DNA of 52,448 nt from Pseudomonadota bacterium (GTDB lineage Bacteria; Bdellovibrionota_F; JAHFAK01; JBDREC01), in assembly GCA_043820105.1 (NCBI GenBank), contig JBDREC010000108.1:1-52448 (forward strand), read 5' to 3'. Below the pieces are notes generated by a model. It did not search any database and had not been told where the DNA came from. It worked only from the letters and a program-made list of their open reading frames with translations. Shown here one piece after another: positions 36,439-49,379 of this stretch. The position numbers were made by a program, and so were the translations under genes. Numbering within the stretch: position 1 is the first letter of the stretch; every line of letters starts with the position of its first letter.

Positions 36439-39400
36439 ATGAAAAATGTTATATCATTTTTAATGAAACAAAATCTTTTAATTAACTTAATTGTTGTTTT
36501 AATTTTATCTGTAGGTTTTGTTACTATAAAAAATATAAATCGAGAAGTAGCCCCTGAGGTTAACTTTGACATGGTCACAATTACAACAATTTATCCAGGT
36601 GCAAGTCCTGATGAATGTGAACAACTTATTACCATTCCCATTGAAAAAAAATTAAGGGAAGTAATGGGGCTTGATAAGGTTCGAAGTTATAACATAGAAA
36701 ATGTTTCAGTTATTGTGATTTATTTATCAGAGGATGCTAAAGATAAGTCCAAAGTAGCAGATGACATTAAAGATGCTGTAGCTTTAGTTAAGGATTTGCC
36801 TGGTAATGCTGAAAAACCCGAAATAAAAGAAGTTAAGCTTGATAAAACCCCTGTTTTAAATTTCGCTATTCGTGGTAAAAAATCAAATGTTTCTTATAGA
36901 AAAATCAGAGAAGTTTCTGAAAAACTAGAAGAGTATTTGTATGAAATTAATGGCATCGCTGATGTTGAAACATATGGAAAGCAAGATAGAGAGTATTTGG
37001 TTGAGGTAAATCCAAAAGCACTGAGTAAATATAGAATTGGTCTTAATAAAGTAATTGATACTTTAAGAGGTAGAAACATTGATCTCCCAGGTGGGTCAAT
37101 AAAGGTTGGGGAAAATGAATATATTCTAAGGACCAAGGGGAAATATAACTCAATTGAGGATATTAAAAATACCTCCCTATTTGCAAATGATGCTGGGTTT
37201 TTAACAAAGGTCAAAGACCTTGCAAAAGTATCAGATACCTTTGAAGAAGCTGATGTTTTTGAAAGGTACAATGGAACTAGATCTGTTATAATGATTGCAT
37301 GGAAAAAACGAAGTGCTGATGAAATAAGAGTTGTTGATACGATTAAAGAAAAAATGAAAACTTTTTCTAATCCCTATGAAAATGAAATAACTATTGATCA
37401 TTTTGGGGACATGAGCAGGATTACTAGAGACAGAATTGATGCAGTTATTGAAAATGCTTTAGTAGGATTTTTACTTTTAATAGCAATTTTATTTCTTTTA
37501 ATGGGAATTCGAATGTCTCTTATTGTAACAGCTTCAATTCCAATTGCTTTTATGGTCGCGTTTATTGGAATGAAGTTAAATGATATCACAATCAATGTTA
37601 TTAGTACCTTTGGTTTAATAATGGTTTTGGGAATGATTGTTGATTTTAGTATTGTAGTTTCAGAAAATAGTTATAGGTACCTGCAAGCAGGCAAATCAAA
37701 GTTGGATGGAATTAGCAAAGGTGTTTCTGAAGTTTTTTGGCCTGTTACTGTTACATTATTATGTATAGTTGCAGCGTTTGCTCCACTTTTATTTATCTCA
37801 GGTGTGGTTGGAAAATTTATTGTAGCAATTCCTTTGGTTGTTATTTTATGTTTAGTTGCTTCATGGATGGGTGCCTTTTTAATTATTCCTAATTATTTAT
37901 ATACCTTTGGTGCTAAGAAAAAATCCAATAATATAAATAAAGAAACAAGCAACAATGAAGAAGTTTATACTAAGGGTTATTTTAGATTTATACAAAAAAT
38001 TTACAGCAGAGCTTTAAAGTGGATGCTTGATTATAGATATATTGCAATAGTGTTAATGTTTGCTTTATTAATAGGAACTTTATCTCTTAGCAAAAAGGTA
38101 GGCTTTGTTTTTATGCCATCAGGAGGAGCTGAAGCTATAAAGATTTGGCTTAAAATGCCACAAGGAACAAATTTAGATACAAACCTTGGACAAGTAAAAA
38201 TTGTGGAAAAAATGATTAATAAACTTCCCAAAGAAGAACTTGAGGGATACAGGATCACTGTTGGAAATGAAGAAACAAGCTGGCTTGATCCAAAACCAGG
38301 GCAGGGAACTCATAAATCAACTATTCATTTAAACTTGAGTCCTGAAAAGAAGCGAAAAAGAAAAGGTGATGAAATTTTATCACAATTAAGAAAAGATTTT
38401 GATAAAGCAAAGAAAGACAAAATCTTTTCAAAAGATGATTTTTTCCAATTTGAGTTAGAAGAAAATGGACCTCCAATTGGAAAACCAATTAATATTGAAA
38501 TAAGAGGCGAAAGCTTTACTGAACTCAAAAAAATTGCAATGGAATATATCTCTTTTTTAGAAAAAACAGATGGTGTATTTGGTATTAGCATAGATCTTGA
38601 GGAAGGTAAGCAAGAATTTAGATATTCAATTAATGAAGACATGGCAGCAAGGACACAAATATCCACAACAAGCGCAGCCCTTGCTCTTAACTCATCTTTT
38701 GAAGGTGCTATTGCAACAAGTGTAAGAGATGGGAAAGATGACATTGATATACGAGTCAGATTTCCAGAAGCAGAAAGAATTGGAGTCGGTAGCCTCAAAA
38801 AAGTAATGATTTCAAATAATCAAGGCGGATTAATTCCTCTTTCTTTAGTTACAGAAGTTAAAAAAGAAAAAGGCTATTCTAATATAAATAGATTAGATTA
38901 TAAGCGGGTTGTTCAGGTATATGGAAATGTAGATCTTTCAATAATTACATCTTTAGAAGTTAATGAAAAGTTAATGTCGCATTTTAAAAATATAGAAAAA
39001 AGGCATCCCGGATATAATGTCACATATGGAGGTGAACAAGAAGAGACTCAAGAAAGAATGACAGAGCTGGCAGTCTTATTTTTATTTGCCTTATTTATTA
39101 TATTTATTATTTTAGCTGTATTTATGAATTCAATTATCCTACCTGTTGTGGTAATGAGCGCCATTCCTTTTGCTACCATTGGAGTAATCCTTGCACTTTT
39201 AACACATGGTGAACCAATGAGTTTCATGACAACTCTCGGTATATTCAGCTTAGCAGGAGTTATTGTTAGCAATACTTTAGTTTTAGTCCAATTTATAAAT
39301 TATCAAAGAGATAAAAAATTAAGTTTAAAAGAATCCCTTCTTAATGCAGGTGTTATTAGATTAAGACCCGTTTTATTAACCGCAGGCACTACAGTCTTAG

Positions 39401-39624
39401 CCCTCATTCCAACTACCTATGGTTTTGGAGGCAAAGATTATTTTGTAGCCCCCTTAGCGCTTGCTTTTGCCTATGGTTTGATTTTTGCAACTTTCATAAC
39501 CCTTGGATTAATTCCAACCTTTTATCATATAGCTGAAGACTTGAAGGGAATATTTGCTACGCTTCTAAAAAAGCTAGGAATAGAAATTAATCCAAAAATT
39601 TATTCTAAAAAAGAGAATTATTAA
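36439..39624 (+). CDS. RND efflux transporter permease (AcrB/AcrD/AcrF family)
   Basis: 1061 aa; YPGASPDECEQLITIPIE, LGMIVDFSIVVSEN, LAGVIVSNTLVLV, RLRPVLLTAGTTVLALIP. Confidence 0.96.
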   Translation: MKNVISFLMKQNLLINLIVVLILSVGFVTIKNINREVAPEVNFDMVTITTIYPGASPDECEQLITIPIEKKLREVMGLDKVRSYNIENVSVIVIYLSEDAKDKSKVADDIKDAVALVKDLPGNAEKPEIKEVKLDKTPVLNFAIRGKKSNVSYRKIREVSEKLEEYLYEINGIADVETYGKQDREYLVEVNPKALSKYRIGLNKVIDTLRGRNIDLPGGSIKVGENEYILRTKGKYNSIEDIKNTSLFANDAGFLTKVKDLAKVSDTFEEADVFERYNGTRSVIMIAWKKRSADEIRVVDTIKEKMKTFSNPYENEITIDHFGDMSRITRDRIDAVIENALVGFLLLIAILFLLMGIRMSLIVTASIPIAFMVAFIGMKLNDITINVISTFGLIMVLGMIVDFSIVVSENSYRYLQAGKSKLDGISKGVSEVFWPVTVTLLCIVAAFAPLLFISGVVGKFIVAIPLVVILCLVASWMGAFLIIPNYLYTFGAKKKSNNINKETSNNEEVYTKGYFRFIQKIYSRALKWMLDYRYIAIVLMFALLIGTLSLSKKVGFVFMPSGGAEAIKIWLKMPQGTNLDTNLGQVKIVEKMINKLPKEELEGYRITVGNEETSWLDPKPGQGTHKSTIHLNLSPEKKRKRKGDEILSQLRKDFDKAKKDKIFSKDDFFQFELEENGPPIGKPINIEIRGESFTELKKIAMEYISFLEKTDGVFGISIDLEEGKQEFRYSINEDMAARTQISTTSAALALNSSFEGAIATSVRDGKDDIDIRVRFPEAERIGVGSLKKVMISNNQGGLIPLSLVTEVKKEKGYSNINRLDYKRVVQVYGNVDLSIITSLEVNEKLMSHFKNIEKRHPGYNVTYGGEQEETQERMTELAVLFLFALFIIFIILAVFMNSIILPVVVMSAIPFATIGVILALLTHGEPMSFMTTLGIFSLAGVIVSNTLVLVQFINYQRDKKLSLKESLLNAGVIRLRPVLLTAGTTVLALIPTTYGFGGKDYFVAPLALAFAYGLIFATFITLGLIPTFYHIAEDLKGIFATLLKKLGIEINPKIYSKKENY

Positions 39625-40409
39625 TTAGGGTAATTTATCTTATCAAAACAAATCTTGCCTAAGCTCTTTTGCTTTCTATGTTGTATTTTTTTAACCTTGT
39701 TTTCTAGATTAATCCTGTGCCGTGATTTATTTTGCTTGGAGATATATTTCATTTGTATAGCAACAATAGCTTCTAAAGTTTTAATAAGAATATTATGTTT
39801 GCCCTTGAAATCTTCCATCTCCCATCTATCAAAGGCATCAAGTAGATGATAAATTGATTCAATAGTTGATAAACAAAATTCAGCTGGCTGCCTTTTAATA
39901 GTAAATTTAGATAAACCTGGTGAGTCAAAACTTATTCTATCAATTCCTTGAAGATTTTTGCTATTTTTAAGTATTTGTTTTGCCCATCTCCAGGTGCCAT
40001 CAATAACAAATATTACAAGCTTACGCTTATTTATAATTGATTCATGAATCGGAGCTTCAGATATATTGTGGACTTCAGGCCCAGGATATAATAATAAAGG
40101 ATAAACTTCATTGCTATCTAAAATCTCATTTACTTTTGTATTTGTTTGAAATTCAGCCCCAACTAATGTCGATGAATTTTCAAGACAAAGGTGGGCTAGT
40201 CGTCCTGTTGTAATTCTAACCCTTTTTAACTCTTTTGGATGAATTAATATTTTTATATGAGCTTTGGTTTGAAATGGAATAATGTTTTTACAAATGCAAG
40301 TATTATCAGGTCTTAAACACTTTATACATAAGTTGCGCAAGGCTTCAAGGTTATGCGTACTTTGCCTTAGCCTTAGTTTTTTTTTGTTTTTATATTCTGC
40401 TAAATTCAT
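39621..40409 (-). CDS. DTW-domain tRNA-uridine aminocarboxypropyltransferase (TapT-like)
   Basis: CIKCLRP...CIC, ILIHPKE, TGRLAHL, LLYPG, IDGTWRWAK, CLSTIES. Confidence 0.92.
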   Translation of the reverse strand: MNLAEYKNKKKLRLRQSTHNLEALRNLCIKCLRPDNTCICKNIIPFQTKAHIKILIHPKELKRVRITTGRLAHLCLENSSTLVGAEFQTNTKVNEILDSNEVYPLLLYPGPEVHNISEAPIHESIINKRKLVIFVIDGTWRWAKQILKNSKNLQGIDRISFDSPGLSKFTIKRQPAEFCLSTIESIYHLLDAFDRWEMEDFKGKHNILIKTLEAIVAIQMKYISKQNKSRHRINLENKVKKIQHRKQKSLGKICFDKINYPN

Positions 40410-40520
40410 AAATAATTAATTTCATAACTTTATATTTAAAGCTATATTATAGAATTGTTTGAATTATGTAATTATTGTTAAAGATAAATGGTGGCTGTTT
40501 ATTGGAAAAAGATCAACAAA

Positions 40521-41033
40521 TTAATCTTCTACGGTAGTTACTAGTCCCAAGTTATTTTTGAAAGCATCTCCAGTGTTATTTTTGTCTCTCATAAAACCCT
40601 GCTGATAAGTACCAACTGTAGCATCATCATCTAAATCCTGATAAATGAAAATCTCACACTGTGTTGTTGGATCCCAAATACCTGTATCGCAGTCAACTTT
40701 TGCTGCACCATAAGTATCTTGATCTGGAACATAGCCAATGATCTTAAATCCATTTGTATCGCCTGCAAAAGCACCCTGAGATCCTGGAACCTTACTTCCA
40801 TTTAAATCTCCAGCTCCATTAGCTGGTTTTGGAGTTGGTATATGGTGAAATTTTGCATTATCAATGTTGTAGTCAGCCTGAGCTGCAAAAATTCCTGAGA
40901 CCATAACTTCGACTTCGCTCTTTTTAGACTTTTTAATATAAGCCATAAAAGATGGGATTGCTATAGCTGCCAAAATGCCGATAATGGCAACAACAATCAT
41001 TAATTCGACCAGTGTAAAGCCTTTTTTCTTCAT
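40521..41033 (-). CDS. pilA: Type IVa major pilin
   Basis: [35 protein letters not shown]...KSKKSE; one Cys pair; sigma-54 promoter and enhancer sites upstream. Confidence 0.9.
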
Positions 41034-41120
41034 GTTACTCTCCTTTTGAAAAAGTTGTTAATATTTTGCTGTTAAGCAAATATGAGCACCTAGGGTCAAG
41101 GTTTCTTTCTTTTATTTTAT

Positions 41121-41163
41121 TTTGTTCCCTTGTTCTCTTGCGCTCTTGTTCTCTTTTACAAGC
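41121..41163 (-). repeat. Octamer repeat block, second copy of 16941-16983
   Basis: Minus strand GCTTGTAAAAGAGAACAAGAGCGCAAGAGAACAAGGGAACAAA; 4 mismatches in 43 nt against the copy in the methyltransferase gene. Confidence 0.85.
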
Positions 41164-41177
41164 AAGAATTATGCCAA
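41161..41177 (-). promoter_or_regulatory. Sigma-54 promoter of pilA
   Basis: Minus strand TTGGCATAATTCTTGCT. Confidence 0.85.
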
Positions 41178-41249
41178 AACCCATAATTTTTAATACCCTG
41201 AAATTAAAGGTGAAATTTAAAAGCTATTTTTACTTCAAGCACTAAAAAG

Positions 41250-41348
41250 TGACAATTTTTGTCAAACCATGACAAATTTTGTCACCCAGGCTATAACTGG
41301 TTGAAATTAAAGGTGAAAATAGATTGGGCGGGGTGACAAATTTTGTCA
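41250..41348. promoter_or_regulatory. Three palindromic enhancer (UAS) sites TGACAAWTTTTGTCA, probably for a PilR-like activator
   Basis: Copies at 41250-41264, 41270-41284 and 41334-41348. A 17-bp direct repeat TGAAATTAAAGGTGAAA (41199, 41302) overlaps IHF-like sequences. Confidence 0.8.
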
Positions 41349-41604
41349 CATCCTGCAAATCTAGGTATTTAGGGGTTCTCAAAGCTTTTCAGTACGAGAT
41401 TTGACTTCGCTTCTCCAAAAATATATAAATTATGCTAAATATTATTAAGGTTCATCTCCATTTTGAGTACCTAAACAATAAGAAACCTATGTACAAACCT
41501 ATGTACGGAGGTTCAGATTCTGAAATCTGGATTTGATATCTGGAAAATCTAAGTATATTTTTATTTTATTCCCCCCAAGTGTTTGTTTTTTTTGGCGCTC
41601 AATG

Positions 41605-41621
41605 TTGGCATAGATCTTGTA
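41605..41621 (+). promoter_or_regulatory. Sigma-54-like promoter upstream of the RAYT gene (non-canonical -12)
   Basis: TTGGCATAGATCTTGTA: GG-N10-GT. Confidence 0.45.
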
Positions 41622-41659
41622 TATATTTCGTCCTAAGTTTAATTTTAAAAGGATAATCT

Positions 41660-42373
41660 ATGCCTTCAATTCCAAGATCTGCTATCTTAGAAAAAGACTG
41701 TTACTTTCATGTAACTCTTAAGTTTCATAACTACGATTGGGCCTTGCAGCCTTATTGGGCTAAAAAACTTTATTATAATCTTCTATGCAAATATAAAGAT
41801 AGATATAATGTTAAAATTACAAACTATAATCTCATGGATTCACATCCGCACCTAGTTGGTCATCAAAAATCACTAGATGATTTCTCAGCCTATTTCAGGA
41901 GAATTCACTCCATCTTTGCCAAAATTTACAATAAGAAAAAGAAAAGACGAGGTCAGGTTTTTTTAGATAGATTTGTTTCTCAATATGTTGAAAGACATGA
42001 TGATTTGGTAAATGTGACAGCTTATGTAGATTTAAACCAAGTAAAAGCCAAGATGGTCACACATCCTTCAAAAAACAAATTCTCATCATAGGCATATTAC
42101 GCAGAAGGAGCAGAAGATGAATTGATAAGCCCATCACCGATTTATAAAAAGTTAGGCAAAACATTAGAAGAAAGACAAAGAAAATACATAAAGCTCATAG
42201 AATCATTTATGGAAGTTTGGGAAGCTATTAAAGAAAGGTTTCATGAAGAATGTAAATATTTTATTGGATCAGATAGCTGGGTAGAAGACAAAAGAAATGA
42301 TTTAAGACAAACTATGCGAGAAAAGTATCAGAAGTGGAAAAAATATTTCAAAGAGCGGGAGCCAGAAAAATAA
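41660..42373 (+). pseudogene. REP-associated tyrosine transposase (RAYT, Y1/HUH, IS200-like) interrupted by an in-frame TAG
   Basis: MPSIPR, YFHVT, LMDSHPHL (HUH), RRGQVFLDRF, YVDLNQVKA (catalytic Tyr), then KFSS-TAG(42089-91)-AYY where WSSY is usual. The 42122-42373 ORF is the same frame; 237 codons in total. Confidence 0.88.
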
Positions 42374-42603
42374 TTTTATAAAATACTCAGCCTTTTTATT
42401 TATGAAGATTGTATAGGTGTACGATTTTGACAAAAACCCAATCTAGATAACCAAATTAACACAGAAACAGACTTGAATTTTATGAAGAATTGTTCATTAA
42501 TTGAAATTCAGTTGAAATGTAATACTTAAAATTTACAATTCGGATTTAAGTCTTAGTGCAGATTTAGCTTTTCTAAACTGAAGCCTCCGTACAGTATTTT
42601 GTT

Positions 42604-42765
42604 TTCAATTATAAATATGCCAGAACTATTTTCGAAAAAGGCAACATTATTTTCAAACTTCAAATCAAGGATAAATATAAGTTAGCTTGCCCAATTTGTA
42701 AATCAAGAGCTATCTCTTTTCAAGGCTCGACTACAAGAAGATTAAAAGCAATGCTCTTATTATAA
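42604..42765 (+). pseudogene. ISL3-family transposase N-terminal remnant
   Basis: My translation, not in the track: FNYKYARTIFEKGNIIFKLQIKDKYKLACPICKSRAISFQGSTTRRLKAMLLL*. It resembles the ISL3 N-terminus (Y-x-Y-x-RT...IF...CPxCxS...G...RR). No start codon. Confidence 0.6.
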
Positions 42766-42812
42766 ATAAATAATAATTAAAAAATCATTTGAAGTGATAC
42801 ATGCACTCTATA

Positions 42813-43193
42813 TTAAATCCCATACCAATTATGAAATTTAATGATCTTTCCATTTTCATTGAAAAATACATGAAGAGCGTTTGACATATTAAACTCTATT
42901 CCATCCTTCTGTTTTCCTTTAGCTTTAACGGTCATTGCGATAGCGCGATTATCATTATCAATTATTCGATCCACATATTCAGCTTTCATGAAGTCAATTT
43001 TAGTAAAAAAATCCTCATACAACTTTTTAATTTCTTGCCTTGATGTCTTGTGCTTTGCATCCCAGGGACTTTTTTGATCATTTATCCCATGAACAATATG
43101 ATCAAAAGTCTCATTAAAAAGGTTAGCTACATCACTGCTATTACTATTATTTACAGCCTTACCATACTCGTCTATTAATTGATTTATATCCAT
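42813..43193 (-). CDS. SnoaL-like / NTF2 family protein
   Basis: 126 aa; VANLF, IKKLYEDFF, HVFFNENGKIIKFHNWY; GAAGGA RBS. Confidence 0.8.
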   Translation of the reverse strand: MDINQLIDEYGKAVNNSNSSDVANLFNETFDHIVHGINDQKSPWDAKHKTSRQEIKKLYEDFFTKIDFMKAEYVDRIIDNDNRAIAMTVKAKGKQKDGIEFNMSNALHVFFNENGKIIKFHNWYGI

Positions 43194-43429
43194 AATAATC
43201 GTCCTTCATTTTTTTAAAGAAAACCATGAAACATTCATTTTTAAAAATCAAATAATTAATTTTTTGATTGAAAGCACTTTTGCTTATTATGCTGAAGAAA
43301 TATGCCTGACCTCTTTTCGTTAAAGCTTTCTTGGTTGAATTTTATTAATTTCTATTATAAAGCATTTCTCTTTTACAGGAATATAACTTTAGGTCTTATG
43401 TTTTTTTAATTTAATCAGGAGCCTTTTAT

Positions 43430-44593
43430 ATGAATTTTGTATTACTGTCACCTCATTTCCCTCCAAATTATCATCTTTTTGCAGTTCGTTTGCATGAAAT
43501 GGGGGTCAATGTTTTGGGGCTTGCAGAAGAAGCTTATGACAATTTAAATGATAATTTAAAGTCTCATTTAACTGAATATTATCGTGTAAATGATATGCAT
43601 AACTATGATGAATTAGTAAGAGCGCTTGGATACTTCACGCATAAATACGGAAAAATTAATAGAATTGAATCGCATAATGAATATTGGCTGGAAACTGAAG
43701 CAAAGCTCAGGACGGATTTTAATATATTTGGAATAAAAAATGATCAGATAGATAAAATCAAACAAAAATCTGAAATGAAAAAAACTTTTATTAAAGCACA
43801 GATAAGTGCAGCAAAAGGTGAACTTGTAGAAGATTTGGGAAAAGCTTTAAAATTCATCGATGCAGTTGGATATCCGGTTATCGCAAAACCTGATATTGGC
43901 GTGGGGGCTTATGATACTTTTAAAATTCATGACAAAAAAGAGTTAAAGCAATTTTTTGACAATAAACCAGATGTTGTATACTTTATGGAAGAGTTTATTG
44001 ACGGTATAATTCAATCTTTCGATGGGCTTACTGATCAGGATGGAAATATTGTTTTTTATACAGTTCATCAATATTCAACTGGTGTAATAAATACTGTTAT
44101 AAAAGATAAAGATATTTATTATTATTCCCTGCGTGATATTCCGACTGATATTAAAGATGCAGGCACAAAAACACTCAGGGCTTTTAATATTAAAGAAAGA
44201 TTTTTTCATTTGGAATTTTTTAGAACAGCTGACAATAAATTAATAGCCCTTGAAGTCAATATGCGGCCTCCGGGTGGGATGACTACTGACATGTTTAATT
44301 ATGCAAATGATATTGATATCTATAAAGAATATGCAAATGTAGTTTCCAGGAATATTTTTGAGGCAAAATACACGCGCTTAAAACATTGTCTTTATGCAGG
44401 AAGAAAAACTTATAAAAACTATTTACATAGCACGGATGAAATTTATCACAAATTTAAAAATAATATTGTGCACAGGGAGCGTTTAAGTGGCGCGTTTAGT
44501 CCGGTATTGGGAGATTTAGGAATCCTCCTGTGTTCACCAAAATTAGATGAAATAATAAGCATGGCTGAATATATCCAGGCTGTTGAAGAATAA
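43430..44593 (+). CDS. ATP-grasp domain protein
   Basis: MNFVLLSPHFPPNY, ESHNEYWL, GYPVIAKPDIGVGA, YFMEEFIDG, FFHLEFF, LEVNMRPPGG. Confidence 0.92.
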   Translation: MNFVLLSPHFPPNYHLFAVRLHEMGVNVLGLAEEAYDNLNDNLKSHLTEYYRVNDMHNYDELVRALGYFTHKYGKINRIESHNEYWLETEAKLRTDFNIFGIKNDQIDKIKQKSEMKKTFIKAQISAAKGELVEDLGKALKFIDAVGYPVIAKPDIGVGAYDTFKIHDKKELKQFFDNKPDVVYFMEEFIDGIIQSFDGLTDQDGNIVFYTVHQYSTGVINTVIKDKDIYYYSLRDIPTDIKDAGTKTLRAFNIKERFFHLEFFRTADNKLIALEVNMRPPGGMTTDMFNYANDIDIYKEYANVVSRNIFEAKYTRLKHCLYAGRKTYKNYLHSTDEIYHKFKNNIVHRERLSGAFSPVLGDLGILLCSPKLDEIISMAEYIQAVEE

Positions 44594-44605
44594 AAAAGGG
44601 AAAAA

Positions 44606-45343
44606 ATGAATATTGAATATCATAAATGGTATAGCCAAAACTTAAATCAGGACATGGAATTAAAGGTTTATGGCCATGCAGGAAAACCTGCAATTGTGTT
44701 TCCAGCTATGGGTGGGAGGTTTTATGAATTTGAAGATTTTAAAATGATAGAGGCAGTAAACTCGTTTATTGAAGCAGGAAAAATCCAGTTTTTTACTGTT
44801 GATAGTGTTGATTTACAATCCTGGTGTAATCATGAAATTCATCCACAGGAACGTGGATTTAGACACGAAGCTTACAATAGATATATTACACAGGAAGTGC
44901 TTCCTTTTATTCGAAACAGAATTGATTCAAATGTTAAATGCCTTACCACAGGTTGCAGTATGGGTGGATATCATTCCGGCAATTTCTTTTTCAGACATCC
45001 TGATTTATTTGATTGCCTCATATCTTTAAGTGGAGTTTTTAGTTTAAAGATGTTTGTGGGTGATTATTTGGATGATAATGTCTATTACAATTCACCTCTA
45101 TTATATTTAAAGAACCTTTCAGATAACTGGTATCTGGACCGATATAAAAAAAGCAAAATCATTATTTGTGTTGGCCAGGGACCCTGGGAAGATGAAATGC
45201 TTGATGACATAAAACCACTTGAAGGAATTCTGAAAGCAAAAAGCATTCCTGCCTGGATAGATTATTGGGGAAATGATGTCAATCACGACTGGGTTTGGTG
45301 GAGAAAGCAATTGCCATATTTTTTAGGAAAATTAGATCTTTAA
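44606..45343 (+). CDS. Esterase family alpha/beta hydrolase
   Basis: YGHAGKP, GCSMGGYH (GxSxG), VGQGPWE, WGNDVNHDWVWW. Confidence 0.92.
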   Translation: MNIEYHKWYSQNLNQDMELKVYGHAGKPAIVFPAMGGRFYEFEDFKMIEAVNSFIEAGKIQFFTVDSVDLQSWCNHEIHPQERGFRHEAYNRYITQEVLPFIRNRIDSNVKCLTTGCSMGGYHSGNFFFRHPDLFDCLISLSGVFSLKMFVGDYLDDNVYYNSPLLYLKNLSDNWYLDRYKKSKIIICVGQGPWEDEMLDDIKPLEGILKAKSIPAWIDYWGNDVNHDWVWWRKQLPYFLGKLDL

Positions 45344-45353
45344 AATCACCATT

Positions 45354-45421
45354 TGTACGGAGGTTAAGATTCTGGAATTAATATAAAAGGTGCAGTATTA
45401 GAAGTGTGTGTTCACCTCCGT
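45354..45421. repeat. REP/REPIN-like mini-element (paired inverted arms)
   Basis: TGTACGGAGGT (45354-45364) pairs with ACCTCCGT (45414-45421); starts 10 bp after the esterase stop. Confidence 0.75.
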
Positions 45422-45598
45422 CTTAATTTTTTATTCAATCAAATATTTATGGAGGCGCTTGCACAAAAGTCGTATCCATGGAGATAGTGTTGAAATTATT
45501 GGTAAAAAATGGGAGAAATTTAAACGAATTCTTGACATGGATTATTATAATAGGATAAGTGAAACAAAATCAATTTATTGAAGGATATTAACTTTTTT

Positions 45599-45898
45599 AT
45601 GAAAAAAATTATTTATTTTAAACCGTCTCTGCACTCAATTATTAATTCAAGTCAAGCTGCTTGTGCCTCAGGCTCTTCTGCTAGTGAAACTGGTTGGACC
45701 TGTAGTTATGGTGGGGAAACTGTTTATGACGGTCGATGCAATTACGGGACTGGCGCCCTCCTTTGGCGAGAAGGCTATCACTATGCTTGTATGTCAGGTA
45801 CCAATGCAGTTTCCACCCTGGATCCGTGCAGCGTTGGAACTAACCCTGGTGTGTCTTTTGATGGTAATATATGCCTGTCCGGTGGAGATTTGGATTAA
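45599..45898 (+). CDS. Cys/Gly-rich repeat peptide, candidate RiPP precursor 2
   Basis: Leader MKKIIYFKPSL; six Cys, all in CxxG; likely start ATG 45599 (track start TTG 45578). Confidence 0.7.
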   Translation: MKKIIYFKPSLHSIINSSQAACASGSSASETGWTCSYGGETVYDGRCNYGTGALLWREGYHYACMSGTNAVSTLDPCSVGTNPGVSFDGNICLSGGDLD

Positions 45899-45921
45899 TT
45901 CAAAGATTTGGATTAATTCAA
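45886..45921. repeat. 18-bp perfect tandem duplication
   Basis: AGATTTGGATTAATTCAA x2, spanning the peptide stop codon and abutting a degenerate arm ATACGGAGGTTAGA. Confidence 0.9.
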
Positions 45922-45935
45922 ATACGGAGGTTAGA

Positions 45936-46358
45936 ATGAAGGACAGAACGGCATTAATAATTATTGATGTTTTAGAAGGTATTGTTAAATTGCCTGTTTC
46001 AATTTATAAAGATAAGCTGTTTTTTGAAAATTTACAAACTAATATAGAAAAGGCCAGAGAGAATGAAAGTCCTGTTATTTATACACAACATTTTACTCCA
46101 CAAGGAAGTTTTTTGAGAAGGGATCAGAACATCAAAAAAAATACATAAACTAATAAACCCTCAAAGGGGTGATGTTATAATTGAAAAACATGAGCCAGAT
46201 TCATTTCATGGAACAAATTTAGATCAAATGCTAAAAGATATAAATATCAATATCCTTTATCTTTGTGGATTTGCAACAGAAGGTTGCATTGATTCAACTG
46301 TTCGTATTGCATTTAGTAAAGGTTATAGCGTTATTCTTATTTCTGATTGTCATACAAC
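45936..46358 (+). pseudogene. Isochorismatase/cysteine hydrolase pseudogene (paralog of 47948-48472)
   Basis: MKDRTALIIIDVLEGIVKLP...; homopolymer frameshifts near 46110 (-1) and 46135 (+2). Similarity to the intact copy stops after ISDCHT, just before the repeat at 46370. Confidence 0.9.
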
Positions 46359-46369
46359 AAAAAAAACTA

Positions 46370-46415
46370 TGTACGGAGGTCCAGATTTGTTATTTTGGAT
46401 TTAAACCTCCGTACA
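46370..46415. repeat. REP/REPIN-like mini-element (perfect 11-bp inverted arms)
   Basis: TGTACGGAGGT-24 nt-ACCTCCGTACA; the interior CCAGATT...TGGATTT parallels the RAYT left flank. Confidence 0.88.
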
Positions 46416-46438
46416 GATTTTTTATTCACTAAAAACAA

Positions 46439-47584
46439 TTAATAATTCATAATTTCATTCAGATTATAGAATTTATTGCTAACAGTTTCAGAATTTCCAG
46501 ACATTTCCAAGGGACCACCTGTTTCAAAAATTTCTTCAAAATTATCTAAAGTACCAACATATTCATAAGAATCAAAGACATATGGAAGCCCTTCACTAAT
46601 AAGAAATGAGCTTGAGTCAGATATTTGAAAATGAAGATGTGGCGCTGTAGAGTTTCCGCTATTGCCTAAATAAGCAAGTACATCTCCTGTTGACACTGTA
46701 TCTCCAATGGAGACTTGTATTGTTTCTGGAATGATATGTGCATAAAAAGCAAAGCGATCATTTCCTAAATCGAGTATAATAAAGTTGCCAGCCACATTTT
46801 CAACTGTCAGTGGATAAGGCATATCTTGATTAGGTAATTGTTCTGGAAAATCGTCTTTGATATTAATAACAGTTCCATCAGCGACTGCTAAAAGGGGAGC
46901 GCCATAGGAGTAATAGTCCTCATTCGCAGTTCCATCATTTTGGTATATATAACCATCTTCATCAAACTGCAATAGGTCAACTCCAAAACGCTGAGAAATA
47001 TATGGAACATCTTGAAAATCAATGATCGCTCGACGATGGTGGAGATCAAAATTCGATGGGCCGTTAGCTGCCCACCATCGATCTCCCGTAACTGGTGGAG
47101 AGATAAGTGCGGTTTCTGTAGTATCAACAGTTGTTTGAGCACCTTCCTTGGTAATTGTAGCACCTTCATTATCGAAATATACTTTATGATAAAGTGTCAA
47201 AGGGACATCTGCGCTTGTCTCAAAGGTAGGCCAGACAAAAATCACTGCTCCCTGTGATGGCTTTTCTTTATTATATGCTTGAAGAGAATTGCTTAACTCG
47301 TCGCCTTCATACGTTTTTAGAATTGTTCCTGTGCTGTCATTATCTATTATTTCAACTTTTGATATGCTGTAGCCCAATTGTTCATAATCGCCCAAATGCA
47401 GCTCATAGCCTAATGCTATTTCGCTTTTAAAAGCAACAGGCATAGGTGCTTTTGTCACCCACAAATCAATGTTTTGTAACTGATTTTCAGCAGTCGTTTC
47501 TTCGTCTATACATGCATTTAAGTTAATTATAAATATAAAACCACAAATTATAAAAAATAATTTTAAAGGCATGGCAAGTTTCAT
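46439..47584 (-). CDS. M23 family metallopeptidase, lipoprotein
   Basis: Lipobox LNAC; QRFGVD, YGAPLLAVADGTV, AGNFIIL, YAHI, LGNSGNSTAPHLHFQ. Confidence 0.92.
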   Translation of the reverse strand: MKLAMPLKLFFIICGFIFIINLNACIDEETTAENQLQNIDLWVTKAPMPVAFKSEIALGYELHLGDYEQLGYSISKVEIIDNDSTGTILKTYEGDELSNSLQAYNKEKPSQGAVIFVWPTFETSADVPLTLYHKVYFDNEGATITKEGAQTTVDTTETALISPPVTGDRWWAANGPSNFDLHHRRAIIDFQDVPYISQRFGVDLLQFDEDGYIYQNDGTANEDYYSYGAPLLAVADGTVINIKDDFPEQLPNQDMPYPLTVENVAGNFIILDLGNDRFAFYAHIIPETIQVSIGDTVSTGDVLAYLGNSGNSTAPHLHFQISDSSSFLISEGLPYVFDSYEYVGTLDNFEEIFETGGPLEMSGNSETVSNKFYNLNEIMNY

Positions 47585-47701
47585 TTTTTATTCCTTTTGT
47601 TAAGAATTGTTTTTTCATATAAATCTTTCACGATTTTTATCACTATTACTTTATCAAGTAAATATAATATTTTTCAAAGTTGATTTTGTTAAAAATTAAA
47701 C

Positions 47702-47711
47702 GTACGGAGGT
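47702..47711 (+). repeat. Solitary REP-like arm
   Basis: GTACGGAGGT followed by CTAAA; I found no partner arm downstream. Confidence 0.7.
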
Positions 47712-47947
47712 CTAAAAGGGTTTATCTTTACCGCTTATTTAATTTCCAACTGTAACTTTTTATGAAAGATTTATATTCAATAAAAACATAGAGAAATAAA
47801 ACACAGACTATTATTAATATCGCTGGAACAGCTCTTTTAAAAGAACGAGCAAGACGAACTTACATTTGAAATAATGAAGTTGATAATTTTACTTTGTTAA
47901 TATAAAAATATCTTTTGTAGAATCCATAAATAAAAACGAGGTGAAAA

Positions 47948-48472
47948 ATGGAAAATCAAAAGGCCTTAATCATTATCGATGTTTTAGAAGGTATTGTGAA
48001 ATTACCTGTTCCAATTTATGAGGAAAAGAAGTTTTTTGAAAATTTGCAAATTATTTTGAAAAAAGCCAAAGATAAAGAAATTCCAGTTATTTATAACCAA
48101 CATTTTACTCCAAAAGGTAGCTTTTTTGAAAAAGGATCAGAAAATCAAAGGATACATAAGTTAATTGAACCTCAAAAGGGGGATATCGTCATTGAAAAAC
48201 ATAACCCAGACTCATTTCATGGAACAAATTTAGATCAAATCCTAAAAGAAAAAAATATCAATACACTTTATATTTGCGGATTCGCAGCAGAAGGTTGCAT
48301 TGATTCAACTGTTAGAAGTGCATTCAGTAAAGATTATAAAGTCATTCTTATATCTGATTGTCATACAACTACAGATACTGAAATCTTGAAAGCAGAACAA
48401 ATAATGGATCACCATAATCATATTTTGCAAAGATTTGCGATCTTGAAAAAAACGGAAGAGGTGCAATTCTAA
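47948..48472 (+). CDS. Isochorismatase family cysteine hydrolase
   Basis: ALIIIDV, IEKHNPDSFHGTNL, ICGFAAEGCIDSTVRSA, LISDCHTT; GAGGTG RBS. Confidence 0.95.
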   Translation: MENQKALIIIDVLEGIVKLPVPIYEEKKFFENLQIILKKAKDKEIPVIYNQHFTPKGSFFEKGSENQRIHKLIEPQKGDIVIEKHNPDSFHGTNLDQILKEKNINTLYICGFAAEGCIDSTVRSAFSKDYKVILISDCHTTTDTEILKAEQIMDHHNHILQRFAILKKTEEVQF

Positions 48473-48834
48473 TGACTTTAATAATTGCCTTATATATCTT
48501 AAACTCTACCTTATTATTGCTACATGAAATAGAATCAGCCTACGAAAAAGAATGGGAAATATTAAAACTTCCAGGAAAGATAACAGGTTTTTTAATCCTG
48601 CATTTACCTATAATATTTTTGCTTTTTTATGGACTTTTGGAGTTAAATAAATTTTCAAAAATAGGAATTGCAATTGGCTTGCTTAGCGGTATTGGGGGCG
48701 TGTTACCATTTTTTGTGCATAAGGTATTTGTAAAGAAAAAAGACAAGTTTATTTTGCCACTATCAAGGATTATTATTTATTCAAATTTAATAACAGGGAT
48801 TGTTTTAGCAGGTTTAATTTTTAGAAAATACTAG
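48472..48834 (+). CDS. Four-TM membrane protein (DUF6713-like)
   Basis: NSTLLLLHEIESAYEKEWEIL...GFLILHLP; TAATG translational coupling. Confidence 0.75.
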   Translation: MTLIIALYILNSTLLLLHEIESAYEKEWEILKLPGKITGFLILHLPIIFLLFYGLLELNKFSKIGIAIGLLSGIGGVLPFFVHKVFVKKKDKFILPLSRIIIYSNLITGIVLAGLIFRKY

Positions 48835-48917
48835 AAATTCAATAGGGGCTTTATTCTCAACAAAAATCTTCAGTCGTACTTGTAATTATTGTTTTAAATA
48901 AGGATGTGATTTTTATA

Positions 48918-49379
48918 ATGAAAATTTATATAGATGCTGATGCTTGTCCAAATGCTGCAAAAGAGGTTCTTTTTAAAACATCAAAGCGTTTGAATATCGA
49001 GCTTATTCTCGTTTCTAATAGAAGTGTCAGGGCGCCTGAAGGCGACCATGTCAAATGCATTATTGTGGAAAAAGCAGCAGACGCAGCAGATGATAAAATT
49101 GTAGAACTTCTCGAAGCTGGAGATTTGGTAATTACTTCTGATATTCTTTTAGCTGCACGTATTGTTAAAAAATCAGCTTTTGCATTAAACTCACATGGCC
49201 AACTTTTTGACGATGATAATATTGGTTCACGCCTAGCGGTTCGAAATCTTCTGGAAGATTTGAGAAACAGTGGGATACAAACTTCATGGTCCGCGCCCTA
49301 TAACGCTAAAAATAAGGCTGATTTTGCAAATGCGCTCAATCGATTTATCACTAAGAGAAATATTGGAAGTAAAAAATAA
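48918..49379 (+). CDS. yaiI: YaiI/YqxD family protein (UPF0178)
   Basis: MKIYIDADACP, DAADDKIV, GDLVITSDILLA, FANALNR. Confidence 0.92.
   Translation: MKIYIDADACPNAAKEVLFKTSKRLNIELILVSNRSVRAPEGDHVKCIIVEKAADAADDKIVELLEAGDLVITSDILLAARIVKKSAFALNSHGQLFDDDNIGSRLAVRNLLEDLRNSGIQTSWSAPYNAKNKADFANALNRFITKRNIGSKK

What the first reader, a model, noticed from the sequence alone, without database searches (positions are those of the whole stretch)
41483..47720. RAYT/HUH transposase followed by accessory gene blocks delimited by its own TGTACGGAGG motif: a possible integron-like gene-capture array
Seen: the motif (T)GTACGGAGG(T) or a close variant occurs at 41502(+), 42584(-), 45354(+), 45414(-, partial), 45922(+, degenerate), 46370(+), 46405(-) and 47702(+). 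I did not see it elsewhere in the 52 kb. Inward-facing pairs enclose the RAYT gene (~1.1 kb) or only 68 and 46 bp. The intervals between pairs each hold a self-contained, unrelated block: ISL3 remnant + SnoaL + ATP-grasp + esterase (42594-45353); CxxG peptide + broken isochorismatase (45422-46369); M23 lipoprotein (46416-47701); then isochorismatase, DUF6713-like and yaiI. Arms sit 10 and 23 bp from the esterase and M23 stops, and one coincides with a gene truncation. Known: RAYTs are Y1 HUH nucleases that cut and rejoin ssDNA at REP hairpins and are thought to spread REPINs; classical REPs start with GTAG/GGAG. Inference: here a GTAC-type REP may act as a recombination site that accumulates cargo beside the enzyme, like attC sites but with an HUH nuclease in place of an integrase.
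Basis: partly seen in the sequence, partly recalled or inferred. Interest (0 to 1): 0.85.

Follow-up and report, generated by a model that had tools for sequence, protein, structure and literature searches.

The report
Broken RAYT-like transposon with mini-copies nearby
This is a decayed copy of a small single-strand-DNA transposon, with two miniature copies and one lone end scattered among ordinary neighbouring genes, and the tests that could be run give no support for a gene-collecting device.

Summary
GTACGGAGG occurs six times exactly between 41503 and 47710 and nowhere else in the window. The gene between the first inward-facing pair is a Y1 HUH nuclease whose model is closest to the E. 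coli REP-associated transposase. It carries a TAG where relatives have Tyr or Phe.

The integron-like reading is not supported:
- The 70-bp and 46-bp "pairs" are left end plus right end of the same element, that is, internal-deletion miniatures. A 348-bp intermediate lies on contig C1.
- 21 of the genome's 27 exact sites lie on 14 other contigs.
- No block gene recurs beside another site.
- The ATP-grasp and esterase pair occurs in 39 of 45 metagenome loci without the nuclease or the other window genes.
- Relatives of the nuclease have homologous arms (core GACGGAG) spread genome-wide, also among housekeeping genes.

One breakpoint does sit at an arm: a broken isochorismatase paralogue ends at the left end of the 46-bp miniature.

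Strain-to-strain variation could not be tested, because no close relative is held.

One unexplained hallmark was found: short tandem duplications of the outer flank abut the arms.

The parts
41449..41481 (+). 33-nt terminus-like repeat of another, unidentified insertion sequence, directly left of the element
   Evidence: 22 other copies or part-copies in the genome. All end at the same GGAGATGAnCC, and their flanks differ beyond it. Only the terminal 33 nt are present in the window.
41483..41506 (+). 12-nt tandem duplication (AAACCTATGTAC twice) that runs into the GTAC of the left arm
   Evidence: The same kind of one-sided duplication occurs at 6 of 27 sites in the genome (random positions: 230 of 20000) and at 9 of 61 arm copies in relatives.
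41502..41529 (+). Left end of the full element: arm TGTACGGAGGT, a 2-nt spacer, then a 6-bp hairpin (41514-41529)
   Evidence: motif. (ssDNA fold -7.9 kcal/mol, z -3.2). (left ends of the C74, C68 and C1 copies align).
41660..42373 (+). RAYT-like Y1 HUH nuclease gene, 237 codons, with an in-frame TAG at 42092-42094 (codon 144)
   Evidence: Pfam Y1_Tnp scores 21.8 bits (cut-off 23). NCBIfam REP_Tyr_transpos scores 49.3 bits (cut-off 80). H62-P63-H64 and Y122 are invariant in 14 sequences; the stop aligns with Y/F and C74 has TAT there. AF2 model pLDDT 85.7; best PDB hit 4ER8, E 1e-5. TAG is an ordinary stop in this genome (437 of 2236 long ORFs).
42584..42593 (-). Right arm of the full element (CCTCCGTACA on the + strand)
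   Evidence: It shares the right-end signature atctGTACGGAGGtttaa (read on the - strand) with 46406 and with C1:93065.
42680..42760 (+). Short relic of an ISL3-type transposase N-terminus
   Evidence: 87% identical over 68 nt to C96:138-205, itself a decayed fragment. The assembly holds no intact copy.
42813..45343 (.). Ordinary genes between arms: SnoaL-like (-), ATP-grasp (+), esterase (+)
   Evidence: ATP-grasp and esterase are adjacent in 39 of 45 metagenome loci of 4 kb or more, at 42-63% identity (ATP-grasp), with no nuclease or other window gene nearby.
45354..45423 (+). 70-bp miniature element: a left-end part plus a right-end part, with a decayed right arm (CCTCCGTC)
   Evidence: both halves resemble the ends of the full element. 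The ssDNA fold is weak (-6.6 kcal/mol, z -1.1).
45578..45898 (+). Small Cys-rich ORF of 106 aa with no family match
   Evidence: no Pfam or NCBIfam hit. One 48%-identical paralogue on C46, not near a motif.
45922..45930 (+). ATACGGAGG: most likely the ribosome-binding site of the broken isochorismatase, not an arm
   Evidence: It lies 5 nt before the ATG at 45937. One-mismatch copies are not enriched genome-wide.
45937..46358 (+). Broken isochorismatase paralogue: frameshifted, with its 3' end missing
   Evidence: 83.5% identical over 413 nt to 47959-48369. The likeness stops at 46358. The rest of the gene is not found after the miniature element.
46370..46415 (+). 46-bp miniature element (left arm plus right arm); strong hairpin between convergent genes, with an A-run before it and a T-run after it
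   Evidence: ssDNA fold -11.3 kcal/mol, z -5.1, 0 of 200 shuffles as good. The end signatures match the full element and the 348-bp C1 copy.
46439..47584 (-). M23 peptidase gene
   Evidence: Peptidase_M23, 55.9 bits.
47702..47711 (+). Lone arm GTACGGAGGT with no partner and no hairpin
   Evidence: The fold is no better than shuffles (z +0.9).
47948..49379 (+). Intact isochorismatase, DUF6713 and YaiI genes, with no arm between or after them

Best explanation
The locus holds a decayed copy of a small transposon-like unit of the REPtron/TIRtron kind. The unit has one gene, for a RAYT-like Y1 HUH single-strand nuclease, bounded by 10-11-bp inverted arms (TGTACGGAGGT). The left arm is followed by a short hairpin.

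Next to it lie two internal-deletion miniatures of the same unit (70 bp and 46 bp) and one lone arm, all in the gaps between ordinary chromosomal genes.

The local nuclease gene is dead (nonsense codon). An intact 74%-identical paralogue on contig C74, with the same left arm, could act in trans.

Inferred mechanism, by analogy with IS200/IS605 TnpA and E. coli TnpA-REP: the enzyme binds the folded arm and hairpin on single-stranded DNA, cuts beside it through Tyr122, and rejoins the strands. This moves or copies the unit and its miniatures.

The cluster most likely reflects repeated short-range insertion, together with tolerance of insertions in a stretch of dispensable genes. Other mobile-element debris lies in the same stretch.

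At least one rearrangement used an arm. The broken isochorismatase paralogue ends at the left end of the 46-bp miniature. This is most simply a deletion next to an inserted copy, or between two copies.

The genes between the arms are residents, not captured cargo.
For: Shown:
- The protein has the HUH motif and catalytic Tyr, a Y1 fold, and E. coli RAYT (4ER8) as best structural match.
- The same arms flank this copy and the left side of the C74 copy, and they bound the 348-bp truncated copy on C1. That copy keeps the first 44 codons at 98% identity.
- Left and right ends have distinct signatures, and the two short pairs each carry one of each.
- Fragments at 91-98% identity on C1 and C3 show recent copying.
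- 27 exact sites lie on 15 contigs. 21 of the 27 are outside ORFs of 120 aa or more (crude ORF call).
- 10 of the 27 lie within about 6 kb of a Y1 gene or fragment of this type (C108 6, C1 3, C74 1).
- Of 36 relatives' loci scanned, 21 gave an exact inverted repeat of 10 nt or more, and 12 of these carry the core (C)AGACGGAG, ATGACGAAGG or CAAGACGGAC. The left arm lies 109-229 nt before the start and the right arm 232-435 nt after the stop.
- Those arms are dispersed genome-wide: 94 against 22 control in one genome, 54 against 3 in another.
- In L124 they sit among housekeeping genes such as rsmB and ffh.
- No block gene is repeated beside another site.
- ATP-grasp and esterase are a free-standing pair elsewhere.

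Inferred: the chemistry, action in trans by the C74 paralogue, short-range insertion, and the deletion at the isochorismatase.
Against: - No transposition event is caught directly. No empty site or circle junction was seen.
- The only joint in reads (41791 to 46401) is explained by the C1 copy.
- The concentration here (6 of 27 sites in 6.2 kb) is stronger than a simple scatter predicts, and one breakpoint does sit at an arm. Recombination at arms is therefore real in some form.
- In relatives, extra arm copies mostly face the nuclease gene (30 of 37). Random insertion does not predict this.
- The isochorismatase/arm junction is not confirmed by independent reads. Run cover was about 2x and patchy, so a misjoin at a repeat cannot be excluded.
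- The protein scores below the curated cut-offs of both family models.
Confidence: 0.75

Rival explanations
1. One reading: the arms are recombination sites at which a Y1 HUH nuclease gathers gene blocks beside itself. This would be a functional analogue of integron attC sites, or of end-bypass capture by IS91/ISCR elements and Helitrons.
For: - Sites are concentrated next to the nuclease gene.
- Arms lie 10 and 23 bp from gene ends.
- A gene fragment ends at an arm.
- The block genes look dispensable. The ATP-grasp was not found above 26% identity in the three nearest held genomes.
- In relatives, extra arm copies face the gene in 30 of 37 cases, with genes in between. That could allow outer arms to act as alternative ends.
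Against: - The short pairs are complete miniature elements, not single sites.
- Orientations are mixed, and the blocks are multi-gene and lie on both strands.
- 21 of 27 sites are elsewhere, mostly single.
- No block recurs with arms.
- The ATP-grasp and esterase pair lacks arms or nuclease in 39 of 45 loci.
- Genes between arms in relatives include housekeeping genes such as ffh and rsmB.
- The local nuclease carries a stop.
- No arm follows the last three genes.
Confidence: 0.06
2. A domesticated REPIN-RAYT system. On this reading the arms and doublets are kept by the host for a function such as transcription termination or mRNA stabilisation, the nuclease only maintains them, and their clustering here is functional.
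For: - The 46-bp doublet is a strong hairpin with an A-run before it and a T-run after it, between convergent genes. That is the shape of a two-way terminator.
- Most sites are intergenic.
- The exact 10-mer is strictly conserved, while one-mismatch copies are not enriched.
Against: - There are several paralogues and fragments of the gene in one genome. That is the opposite of the single vertically inherited copy said to mark domesticated groups (PMC5581495, abstract and passages).
- Copy number is low (27).
- The lone arm and the 70-bp element fold no better than shuffles.
- The simple terminator scan did not report the doublet; its loop is longer than that scan allows.
Confidence: 0.1
3. The one piece of evidence for recombination at an arm, the truncated isochorismatase, is an assembly misjoin of two loci that each carry a copy of the repeat.
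For: The genome is a metagenome-assembled draft of 113 contigs, and copies of this element sit at contig ends (C68, C74). The public runs that hold the organism cover it only about 2x, and no listed piece spans 46340-46400.
Against: The 46-bp element has no identical copy elsewhere in the assembly that could have caused a misjoin. A 255-nt run contig bridges its right arm into the M23 gene without any difference (record 13). The frameshift in the paralogue shows decay that does not depend on the junction.
Confidence: 0.07

Closest known systems
REPtron: E. coli TnpA-REP/RAYT with its REP/BIME (structure 4ER8; PMC3479197, search listing and abstract only; PMC8266576, passages read)
   Same: - A Y1 HUH nuclease gene flanked by inverted copies of a short motif plus hairpin, which also occurs elsewhere in the genome.
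- 4ER8 is the best structural match of the model.
- There is a conserved 4-nt head 5' of the hairpin. GTAC is one base from GTAG, and in Marinomonas TnpA-REP a GTAG-to-GTAC change retargets cleavage (PMC8266576).
   Different: - The head is GTAC followed by GGAGGT, and it sits 8 nt from a 6-bp hairpin instead of at the foot of a long stem.
- Relatives have AGAC or TGAC heads.
- The protein is 237 aa, with a helical tail of about 100 aa and HPH in place of H-hydrophobic-H.
- There are several gene copies and fragments per genome.
- There are only 27 sites, not hundreds.
- The protein scores below the curated family cut-off.
TIRYT/TIRtron (Di Nocera 2013, PMC3733652, passages read) and TnpA-Y1 subclass 2.1 (Quentin 2018, PMC6006769, sections 12 and 15 part 1 read)
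   Same: - A RAYT-like gene bounded by terminal inverted repeats rather than canonical REPs.
- The repeats form moderately abundant families, partly as dimers.
- Median length is 238 aa, with an 'SS' motif in the proximal tail and a Y-x-x-L-N-P type tyrosine motif (here YVDLNQ; relatives Y[IV]DLN[QP]).
- It is common in 'Delta'-type lineages.
   Different: - The published TIR consensus GGGGWSAS is absent; the arms here share the core ACGGAGG.
- The HuH motif is [SN]HPH, not NH[VYF]H.
- No HTH or DnaA-C-like domain was detected by Pfam.
IS200/IS605 family with its miniature derivatives
   Same: - A Y1 HUH enzyme and a hairpin near the left end.
- Multiple and partial copies in one genome.
- Short non-autonomous derivatives made of the two ends.
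   Different: - IS200-type TnpA proteins are about 150 aa and have a Y-x-x-x-Q motif (PMC6006769, Table 1).
- Their ends are subterminal hairpins without terminal inverted repeats.
- There is no tnpB here.
- These structures rank below 4ER8 in the fold search.
Integron cassette arrays, and HUH-based capture by IS91/ISCR and Helitrons (search listing and own knowledge)
   Same: Hairpin-forming sites recognised as single-stranded DNA, and sites close to gene ends beside a recombinase gene.
   Different: - There is no uniform site orientation.
- The sites are whole mini-elements.
- Blocks are multi-gene and bidirectional.
- The sites are not confined to an array.
- The enzyme is a small Y1 protein, not a tyrosine recombinase or a Y2/helicase rolling-circle transposase.

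Membership tests
RAYT / TnpA-REP (REPtron) | HUH motif and catalytic Tyr in a Y-x-x-x-N-P/Q helix on a Y1 fold | tested here: met
   H62-P63-H64 and Y122 (YVDLNQ) are invariant in 14 aligned sequences. Model pLDDT is 85.7; best PDB hit is 4ER8 with E 1e-5 and TM(target) 0.68.
RAYT / TnpA-REP (REPtron) | Score above the curated family thresholds | tested here: not met
   NCBIfam NF047646 scores 49.3 bits against a cut-off of 80. Pfam PF01797 scores 21.8 bits against 23. phmmer against PDB sequences found no hit at E up to 1.
RAYT / TnpA-REP (REPtron) | Gene flanked by inverted copies of a repeat that is also dispersed in the genome | tested here: met
   Arms lie at 41503+ and 42584-. There are 27 exact sites on 15 contigs, and 26 of 741 GGAGGT are preceded by GTAC against 0.72 expected.
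RAYT / TnpA-REP (REPtron) | Canonical REP: a 5' GT[AG]G directly at the foot of a stem-loop | tested here: not met
   The head is GTAC, separated by GGAGGTT from a 6-bp hairpin. Relatives have AGAC or TGAC. The right arm and the lone arm have no significant hairpin.
RAYT / TnpA-REP (REPtron) | Single copy per genome (the domesticated groups 2 and 3 of Bertels 2017) | tested here: not met
   Two full-length genes of this type (C108 with a stop; C74 at 74%), fragments on C1, C3 and C103, and two more paralogues at 42-44%.
RAYT / TnpA-REP (REPtron) | Cleavage and strand transfer on cognate ssDNA | not testable with these tools
   This needs a biochemical assay.
TIRYT / TnpA-Y1 subclass 2.1 | About 238 aa, an SS motif in the tail, and a Y[IV]xLNP motif | tested here: met
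   237 aa, S142-S143, and YVDLNQ (YIDLNP in some relatives), compared with Table 1 of PMC6006769.
TIRYT / TnpA-Y1 subclass 2.1 | HuH = NH[VYF]H, TIR consensus GGGGWSAS, and an HTH-like C-terminal domain | tested here: not met
   The HuH motif is SHPH or NHPH. The arms are TGTACGGAGGT or (C)AGACGGAG. No HTH family appears in Pfam at E up to 0.01.
IS200/IS605 | A short TnpA (about 150 aa) with Y-x-x-x-Q, and subterminal hairpins without terminal inverted repeats | tested here: not met
   The protein has 237 aa and Y-x-x-x-N-Q, and the element has 10-11-bp terminal inverted repeats.
Integron-like cassette array | One recombination site per cassette, all in one orientation, confined to the array | tested here: not met
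   The order of sites is + - + (-) + - +. Two of the 'sites' are left-plus-right mini-elements. 21 of 27 sites lie on other contigs.
Integron-like cassette array | Cassettes are mostly single, co-oriented, promoterless genes | tested here: not met
   Block 1 holds three genes on both strands. M23 is on the opposite strand to its neighbours.
Integron-like cassette array | Cassette content differs between strains, with junctions at the sites | not testable with these tools
   No close relative is held. 0 of 30 other genomes share more than a 56-83-nt stretch of the pilin gene. The runs give only about 2x of the same organism. Metagenome relatives of the ATP-grasp reach at most 63% identity over its full length.

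The most novel reading that the evidence does not exclude
The arms of this Y1 family may be live recombination sites that reshape their surroundings, not only the ends of a selfish unit. On this reading the enzyme nicks just outside a bound arm and rejoins after a short stretch of synthesis. That would leave the one-sided 9-17-nt flank duplications seen at 6 of 27 sites here and 9 of 61 in relatives. Outer, inward-facing arm copies (30 of 37 in relatives) could then serve as alternative ends, so that neighbouring genes are occasionally cut out, lost or carried along. The isochorismatase fragment that ends at an arm would be one such event. This would be a Y1-HUH route to local gene shuffling, closer to ISCR or Helitron end-bypass than to an integron.
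Probability: 0.08. Interest if true: 0.7.

Novelty: new variant of a known kind. Interest (0 to 1): 0.3.

Why it matters
As a gene-capture device it would have been a new principle, but the tests that could be run do not support that.

What remains is a useful, modest result.

- **A divergent RAYT/TIRYT-like clade.** 168 cluster representatives score at E 1e-30 or better. It is found mostly in groundwater and sediment MAGs labelled Deltaproteobacteria or UBA10199.
- **Recognisable cognate arms.** They share the core GACGGAG, which becomes GTACGGAGG here.
- **IS-like behaviour.** The gene behaves like an insertion sequence (several copies, fragments, miniatures), not like the single-copy domesticated RAYTs of Gammaproteobacteria.
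- **A bearing on published classifications.** Quentin 2018 reports no REP-like partner for the long subclass 2.1 proteins (PMC6006769). Di Nocera 2013 found only GGGGWSAS-type TIRs for TIRYTs (PMC3733652).
- **A possible footprint of activity.** The one-sided flank duplication at the arms is statistically solid and unexplained. It may be a sequence footprint of how these nucleases act in cells.

Tried and rejected
- **Synteny in relatives.** 30 other genomes were searched with 11 kb of the locus. Only a 56-83-nt piece of the pilin gene matched, in 7 of them. The three nearest genomes have no ATP-grasp orthologue (26% identity or less) and only distant Y1 proteins (24-38%). So synteny could not be judged.
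- **Public runs.** Two groundwater runs hold 0.19 and 0.13 of the sampled words, as contigs of 200-370 nt at about 2x; a third holds next to none. They give no usable structural variation. The one joint near an arm (41791 to 46401, shorter side 20 nt, 10 letters between) matches the truncated C1 copy and is not a variant of this locus.
- **Metagenome loci of the ATP-grasp.** 78 loci were returned, at 63% identity or less over the full-length protein. This is too distant for synteny. They show only that the ATP-grasp and esterase pair is widespread.
- **A second arm family.** CAAGACGAAC flanks the C39 paralogue. Window sites 47850 and 49388 looked like members. However, the degenerate pattern AAGACG[AG]A[CG] is not enriched genome-wide (100 against 304 for the reversed control), so these two sites are treated as chance.
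- **Motif as ribosome-binding site.** GGAGGT is Shine-Dalgarno-like, but only 1 of 27 sites precedes a start codon of an ORF of 60 aa or more. Rejected as a general explanation, and kept only for 45922.
- **Equation with the 'CGTC-tagged' REPs of Di Nocera 2013.** The complementary strand of relatives' arms reads CCTCCGTC, but there the tag lies 3' of the hairpin, not 5' of it. The geometry differs, so this is not claimed.
- **Rfam.** No family reached its gathering score in the window. The promoter and terminator scan gave counts near the shuffles.
- **E1 inside an ISL3 copy.** Whether the full element sits inside an ISL3 copy could not be settled, because the assembly holds no intact ISL3.
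- **A wasted query.** One query (an arbitrary frame of L108 read through all stops) was ill-conceived, gave nothing and is not used.
- **A slip in my notes.** Note 2 says 40 of 45 loci. The correct count is 39 of 45.

Full report
**1. The observation**

GTACGGAGG is exact at 41503+, 42584-, 45355+, 46371+, 46406- and 47702+, with a one-mismatch copy at 45922+. There is nothing else in the 52448 bases. That is 7 matches against 1.12 expected, and 0 of 100 shuffles reach 7.

The decayed partner CCTCCGTC at 45415-45422 is also present.

The inward-facing pairs span 1092, 70 and 46 bp. The arms lie 10 bp after the esterase stop and 23 bp from the M23 stop.

**2. The genome**

The window is contig C108 of a 3.81-Mb draft of 113 contigs with 32% G+C. 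It is 92.9% complete.

The only public runs that hold it are groundwater metagenomes.

It has no close relative among the held species genomes: two are in the same order and one is in the same class.

**3. How common the motif is**

There are 27 exact 9-mers on 15 contigs.

This is far above chance. Of the 741 GGAGGT in the genome, 26 are preceded by GTAC, against 0.72 expected.

One-mismatch copies of the 10-mer are not enriched: 35 were seen and about 68 are expected from base composition.

Only 1 of 27 sites could be a ribosome-binding site.

21 of 27 lie outside ORFs of 120 aa or more, by a crude ORF call.

So this is a low-copy, sharply conserved, mostly intergenic repeat. Six of its 27 copies lie in the 6.2 kb of the finding. 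Ten lie within about 6 kb of a nuclease gene or fragment of this type (C108 6, C1 3, C74 1). An eleventh, at the end of C68, has the same left end as C74. The other 16 are scattered over 12 contigs.

**4. The gene**

41660-42373 reads as 237 codons with a TAG at codon 144.

Homologues have Tyr or Phe there, and the C74 paralogue has TAT.

TAG ends 437 of 2236 long ORFs in this genome, so it is an ordinary stop.

H62-P63-H64 and Y122 (YVDLNQ) are invariant in 14 aligned sequences.

The protein scores below the curated cut-offs: Pfam Y1_Tnp 21.8 against 23, and NCBIfam REP_Tyr_transpos 49.3 against 80.

An AlphaFold model built from the alignment has pLDDT 85.7. It shows the Y1 core followed by a helical tail. 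Its best PDB match is the E. coli REP-associated transposase bound to a REP hairpin (4ER8, E 1e-5, TM 0.68 on the target). IS200, IS608 and ISDra2 transposases rank below it.

The genome holds these copies:
- an intact paralogue on C74 (74% identity);
- two more distant paralogues on C76 and C39 (44% and 42%);
- fragments on C1 (44 codons, 98%), C3 (61 codons, 95%) and C103.

This is IS-like behaviour. It is not the single-copy state described for domesticated RAYTs (PMC5581495, abstract and passages).

**5. What the short pairs are**

Left and right ends of the full unit can be told apart.
- Left ends read (a)ctatGTACGGAGGt(c/t)cagatt and are followed by a 6-bp hairpin.
- Right ends, read on the other strand, are atctGTACGGAGGtttaa.

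The 46-bp element at 46370-46415 carries one of each. So does a 348-bp element on C1, which still holds the promoter region and the first 44 codons.

The 70-bp element at 45354-45423 likewise joins a left-end piece to a right-end piece. Its right arm has decayed to the AGACGGAGG form that relatives carry.

These are therefore internal-deletion miniatures of the nuclease-bearing unit. They are neither single recombination sites nor pairs of identical REPs.

The 46-bp element folds strongly as ssDNA (-11.3 kcal/mol, z -5.1). The 70-bp element and the lone arm at 47702 do not fold better than shuffles.

**6. The blocks**

No block, and no block gene, recurs next to another copy of the motif. At the DNA level the only repeats are the isochorismatase pair, a YaiI paralogue on C10 far from any site, and mobile-element pieces. 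The protein level gives the same result.

The ATP-grasp gene has 78 relatives in metagenome contigs, at no more than 63% identity over its full length. Of the 45 loci of 4 kb or more, 39 have the esterase directly downstream, and three of the other six end at the contig edge. None has the nuclease, SnoaL, the Cys-rich ORF, M23, isochorismatase, DUF6713 or YaiI at E 1e-5 or better.

So this pair is a free-standing two-gene module, with no link to the arms elsewhere.

The wider neighbourhood is ordinary: a TetR-OEP-AcrB efflux operon, a DTW-domain gene, a type IV pilin-like gene and a Big_5 protein.

**7. The one breakpoint at an arm**

The broken isochorismatase (45937-46358, frameshifted) is 83.5% identical over 413 nt to the intact gene 2 kb downstream.

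The likeness stops at 46358. It is followed by AAAAAAAACTAT and then the left arm of the 46-bp element. The same aaaactat precedes the arm on C42, so the break coincides with the element's extended left edge.

The missing 3' part of the gene does not follow the element. The 3' end of M23 does.

The simplest account is an insertion followed by an adjacent deletion, or a deletion between two copies.

The junction is not confirmed by independent reads.

**8. Relatives of the nuclease**

A scan of species genomes found 44 loci. Most are in MAGs labelled Deltaproteobacteria, UBA10199 or simply 'bacterium', with up to six copies listed for one genome.

A profile search finds 168 cluster representatives at E 1e-30 or better, and 10099 at 1e-10 or better.

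Of the 36 loci examined, 21 gave an exact inverted repeat of 10 nt or more around the gene, and 12 of these share a core: (C)AGACGGAG(G), ATGACGAAGG or CAAGACGGAC. The left arm lies 109-229 nt before the start and the right arm 232-435 nt after the stop. The window's arm, TGTACGGAGG, shares ACGGAGG with them.

Extra copies lie in the +-6 kb around the gene, up to 14 in one locus.

The arms are also dispersed genome-wide: 94 against 22 for the reversed control in one 2.5-Mb genome, and 54 against 3 in a 1.8-Mb genome.

Genes around the arms in two such loci include the following:
- L124: rsmB, a Ser/Thr kinase, a GGDEF protein, a SpoU methylase and ffh;
- L101: carbonic anhydrase, a LysR regulator, an M48 peptidase, TerC and a phosphoribosyltransferase.

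This is what an ordinary REP-like repeat looks like. It argues against capture as a property of the family.

**9. Two features that the plain reading does not explain**

First, 6 of the 27 sites here have a 9-12-nt tandem duplication of the outer flank that ends within -1 to +5 nt of the motif start. The window's example is AAACCTATGTAC twice, at 41483-41506. Only 230 of 20000 random positions show the like. In relatives, 9 of 61 arm copies have such a duplication (units of 9-17 nt), against 140 of 20000 random positions. The duplicated flanks differ from site to site, so the event happens at each site.

Second, in the 12 relatives' loci, 30 of 37 extra arm copies face the nuclease gene. These copies are not independent, because many are tandem. 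The window does not show this bias.

I offer only an inference. A nick outside a bound arm, short displacement synthesis and rejoining would give the duplications, and repeated rounds would give same-sense arm arrays. Replication slippage at a hairpin is the rival.

**10. Comparison with what is known**

The anatomy is that of a REPtron (PMC6006769 section 12; PMC8266576 passages). It is closer still to the TIRtrons and TIRYTs of Di Nocera 2013, which are RAYT-like genes bounded by terminal inverted repeats that form moderately abundant families (PMC3733652, passages).

By Table 1 of Quentin 2018, the length, the SS motif and the Y motif fit subclass 2.1. That subclass is reported to have no REP partner and to match the TIRYTs (PMC6006769, section 15 part 1).

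The differences here are the HPH motif, the ACGGAGG arms in place of GGGGWSAS, and the absence of a detectable HTH tail.

Their profiles and alignments are in supplements that I could not open, so subclass membership is untested.

GTAC as a head is of interest. In Marinomonas TnpA-REP a GTAG-to-GTAC change retargets cleavage (PMC8266576, passages). However, relatives use AGAC or TGAC heads, so the conserved part is what follows the head.

Searches for TIRYT, TIRtron or REPtron (7 papers) and for UBA10199 with transposase or 'repetitive extragenic' (10 of 129 listed, none with UBA10199) showed no description of this clade or of the flank duplications. I did not search further than that.

**11. 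Verdict**

The identification of the gene, and of the motif as its cognate site, is right.

The integron-like capture reading is not supported by anything that could be tested, and it fails the anatomical criteria. It is not formally excluded, because strain comparison was impossible.

The locus is best read as a dead copy of a RAYT/TIRYT-like transposon with its miniatures, in a stretch of dispensable genes, and with one arm-associated deletion.

Noticed in passing
window 41483-41506; G000 C1:92726, C42:52895, C68:47008, C76:2262, C104:624; loci L097, L101, L104, L108, L114, L122, L126: One-sided tandem duplications of 9-17 nt of the outer flank run into the first bases of the arm. They occur at 6 of 27 sites here and at 9 of 61 arm copies in relatives, against about 1% of random positions.
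   Followed up: partly
loci L101, L104, L108, L114, L120, L124: Extra arm copies around the nuclease gene of relatives mostly face the gene (30 of 37). Some form tandem arrays with a 17-45-nt period.
   Followed up: partly
window 41449-41481: A 33-nt terminus-like repeat of another mobile element. It has 22 other copies or part-copies in the genome, which all end at GGAGATGAnCC. At least three internal sequence types lie behind it. No transposase was identified for it.
   Followed up: partly
window 41584-41612 and the matching place in copies on C74, C1 and C3: A conserved TTGGCATA-N4-TTGTATATA lies about 50 nt before the start codon of the nuclease gene in 4 copies. It resembles a sigma-54 type -24/-12 promoter; that resemblance is from recall and was not tested.
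   Followed up: no
whole genome G000: The most frequent 12- and 16-mers are heptamer tandem repeats (AAGTGGT type, up to 544 occurrences of a 12-mer, and AATACTG and AAGTCGT types). They are far more abundant than the arm motif.
   Followed up: no
window 43430-45343 and 39 metagenome loci (L011...L088): The ATP-grasp_4 protein and a putative esterase form a tightly conserved adjacent pair across many metagenomes at 42-63% identity. Their function is unknown.
   Followed up: partly
window 40521-41033 (-): A type IV pilin-like gene (prepilin N-terminal domain) has at least seven 71-78%-identical paralogous stretches on C19, C30, C88 and C103.
   Followed up: no
G000 C76:92630-97100 versus window 36439-42373: An AcrB-type transporter paralogue (34% identity) lies directly upstream of a nuclease paralogue (44%) on C76. 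This echoes the order in the window and may be coincidence.
   Followed up: no
G000 C39:35287-35338 and 36497: The 42%-identical paralogue on C39 has its own arms (ACACAAGACGAACC), with a 26-nt tandem duplication on the left. So each paralogue type appears to keep its own arm sequence.
   Followed up: partly
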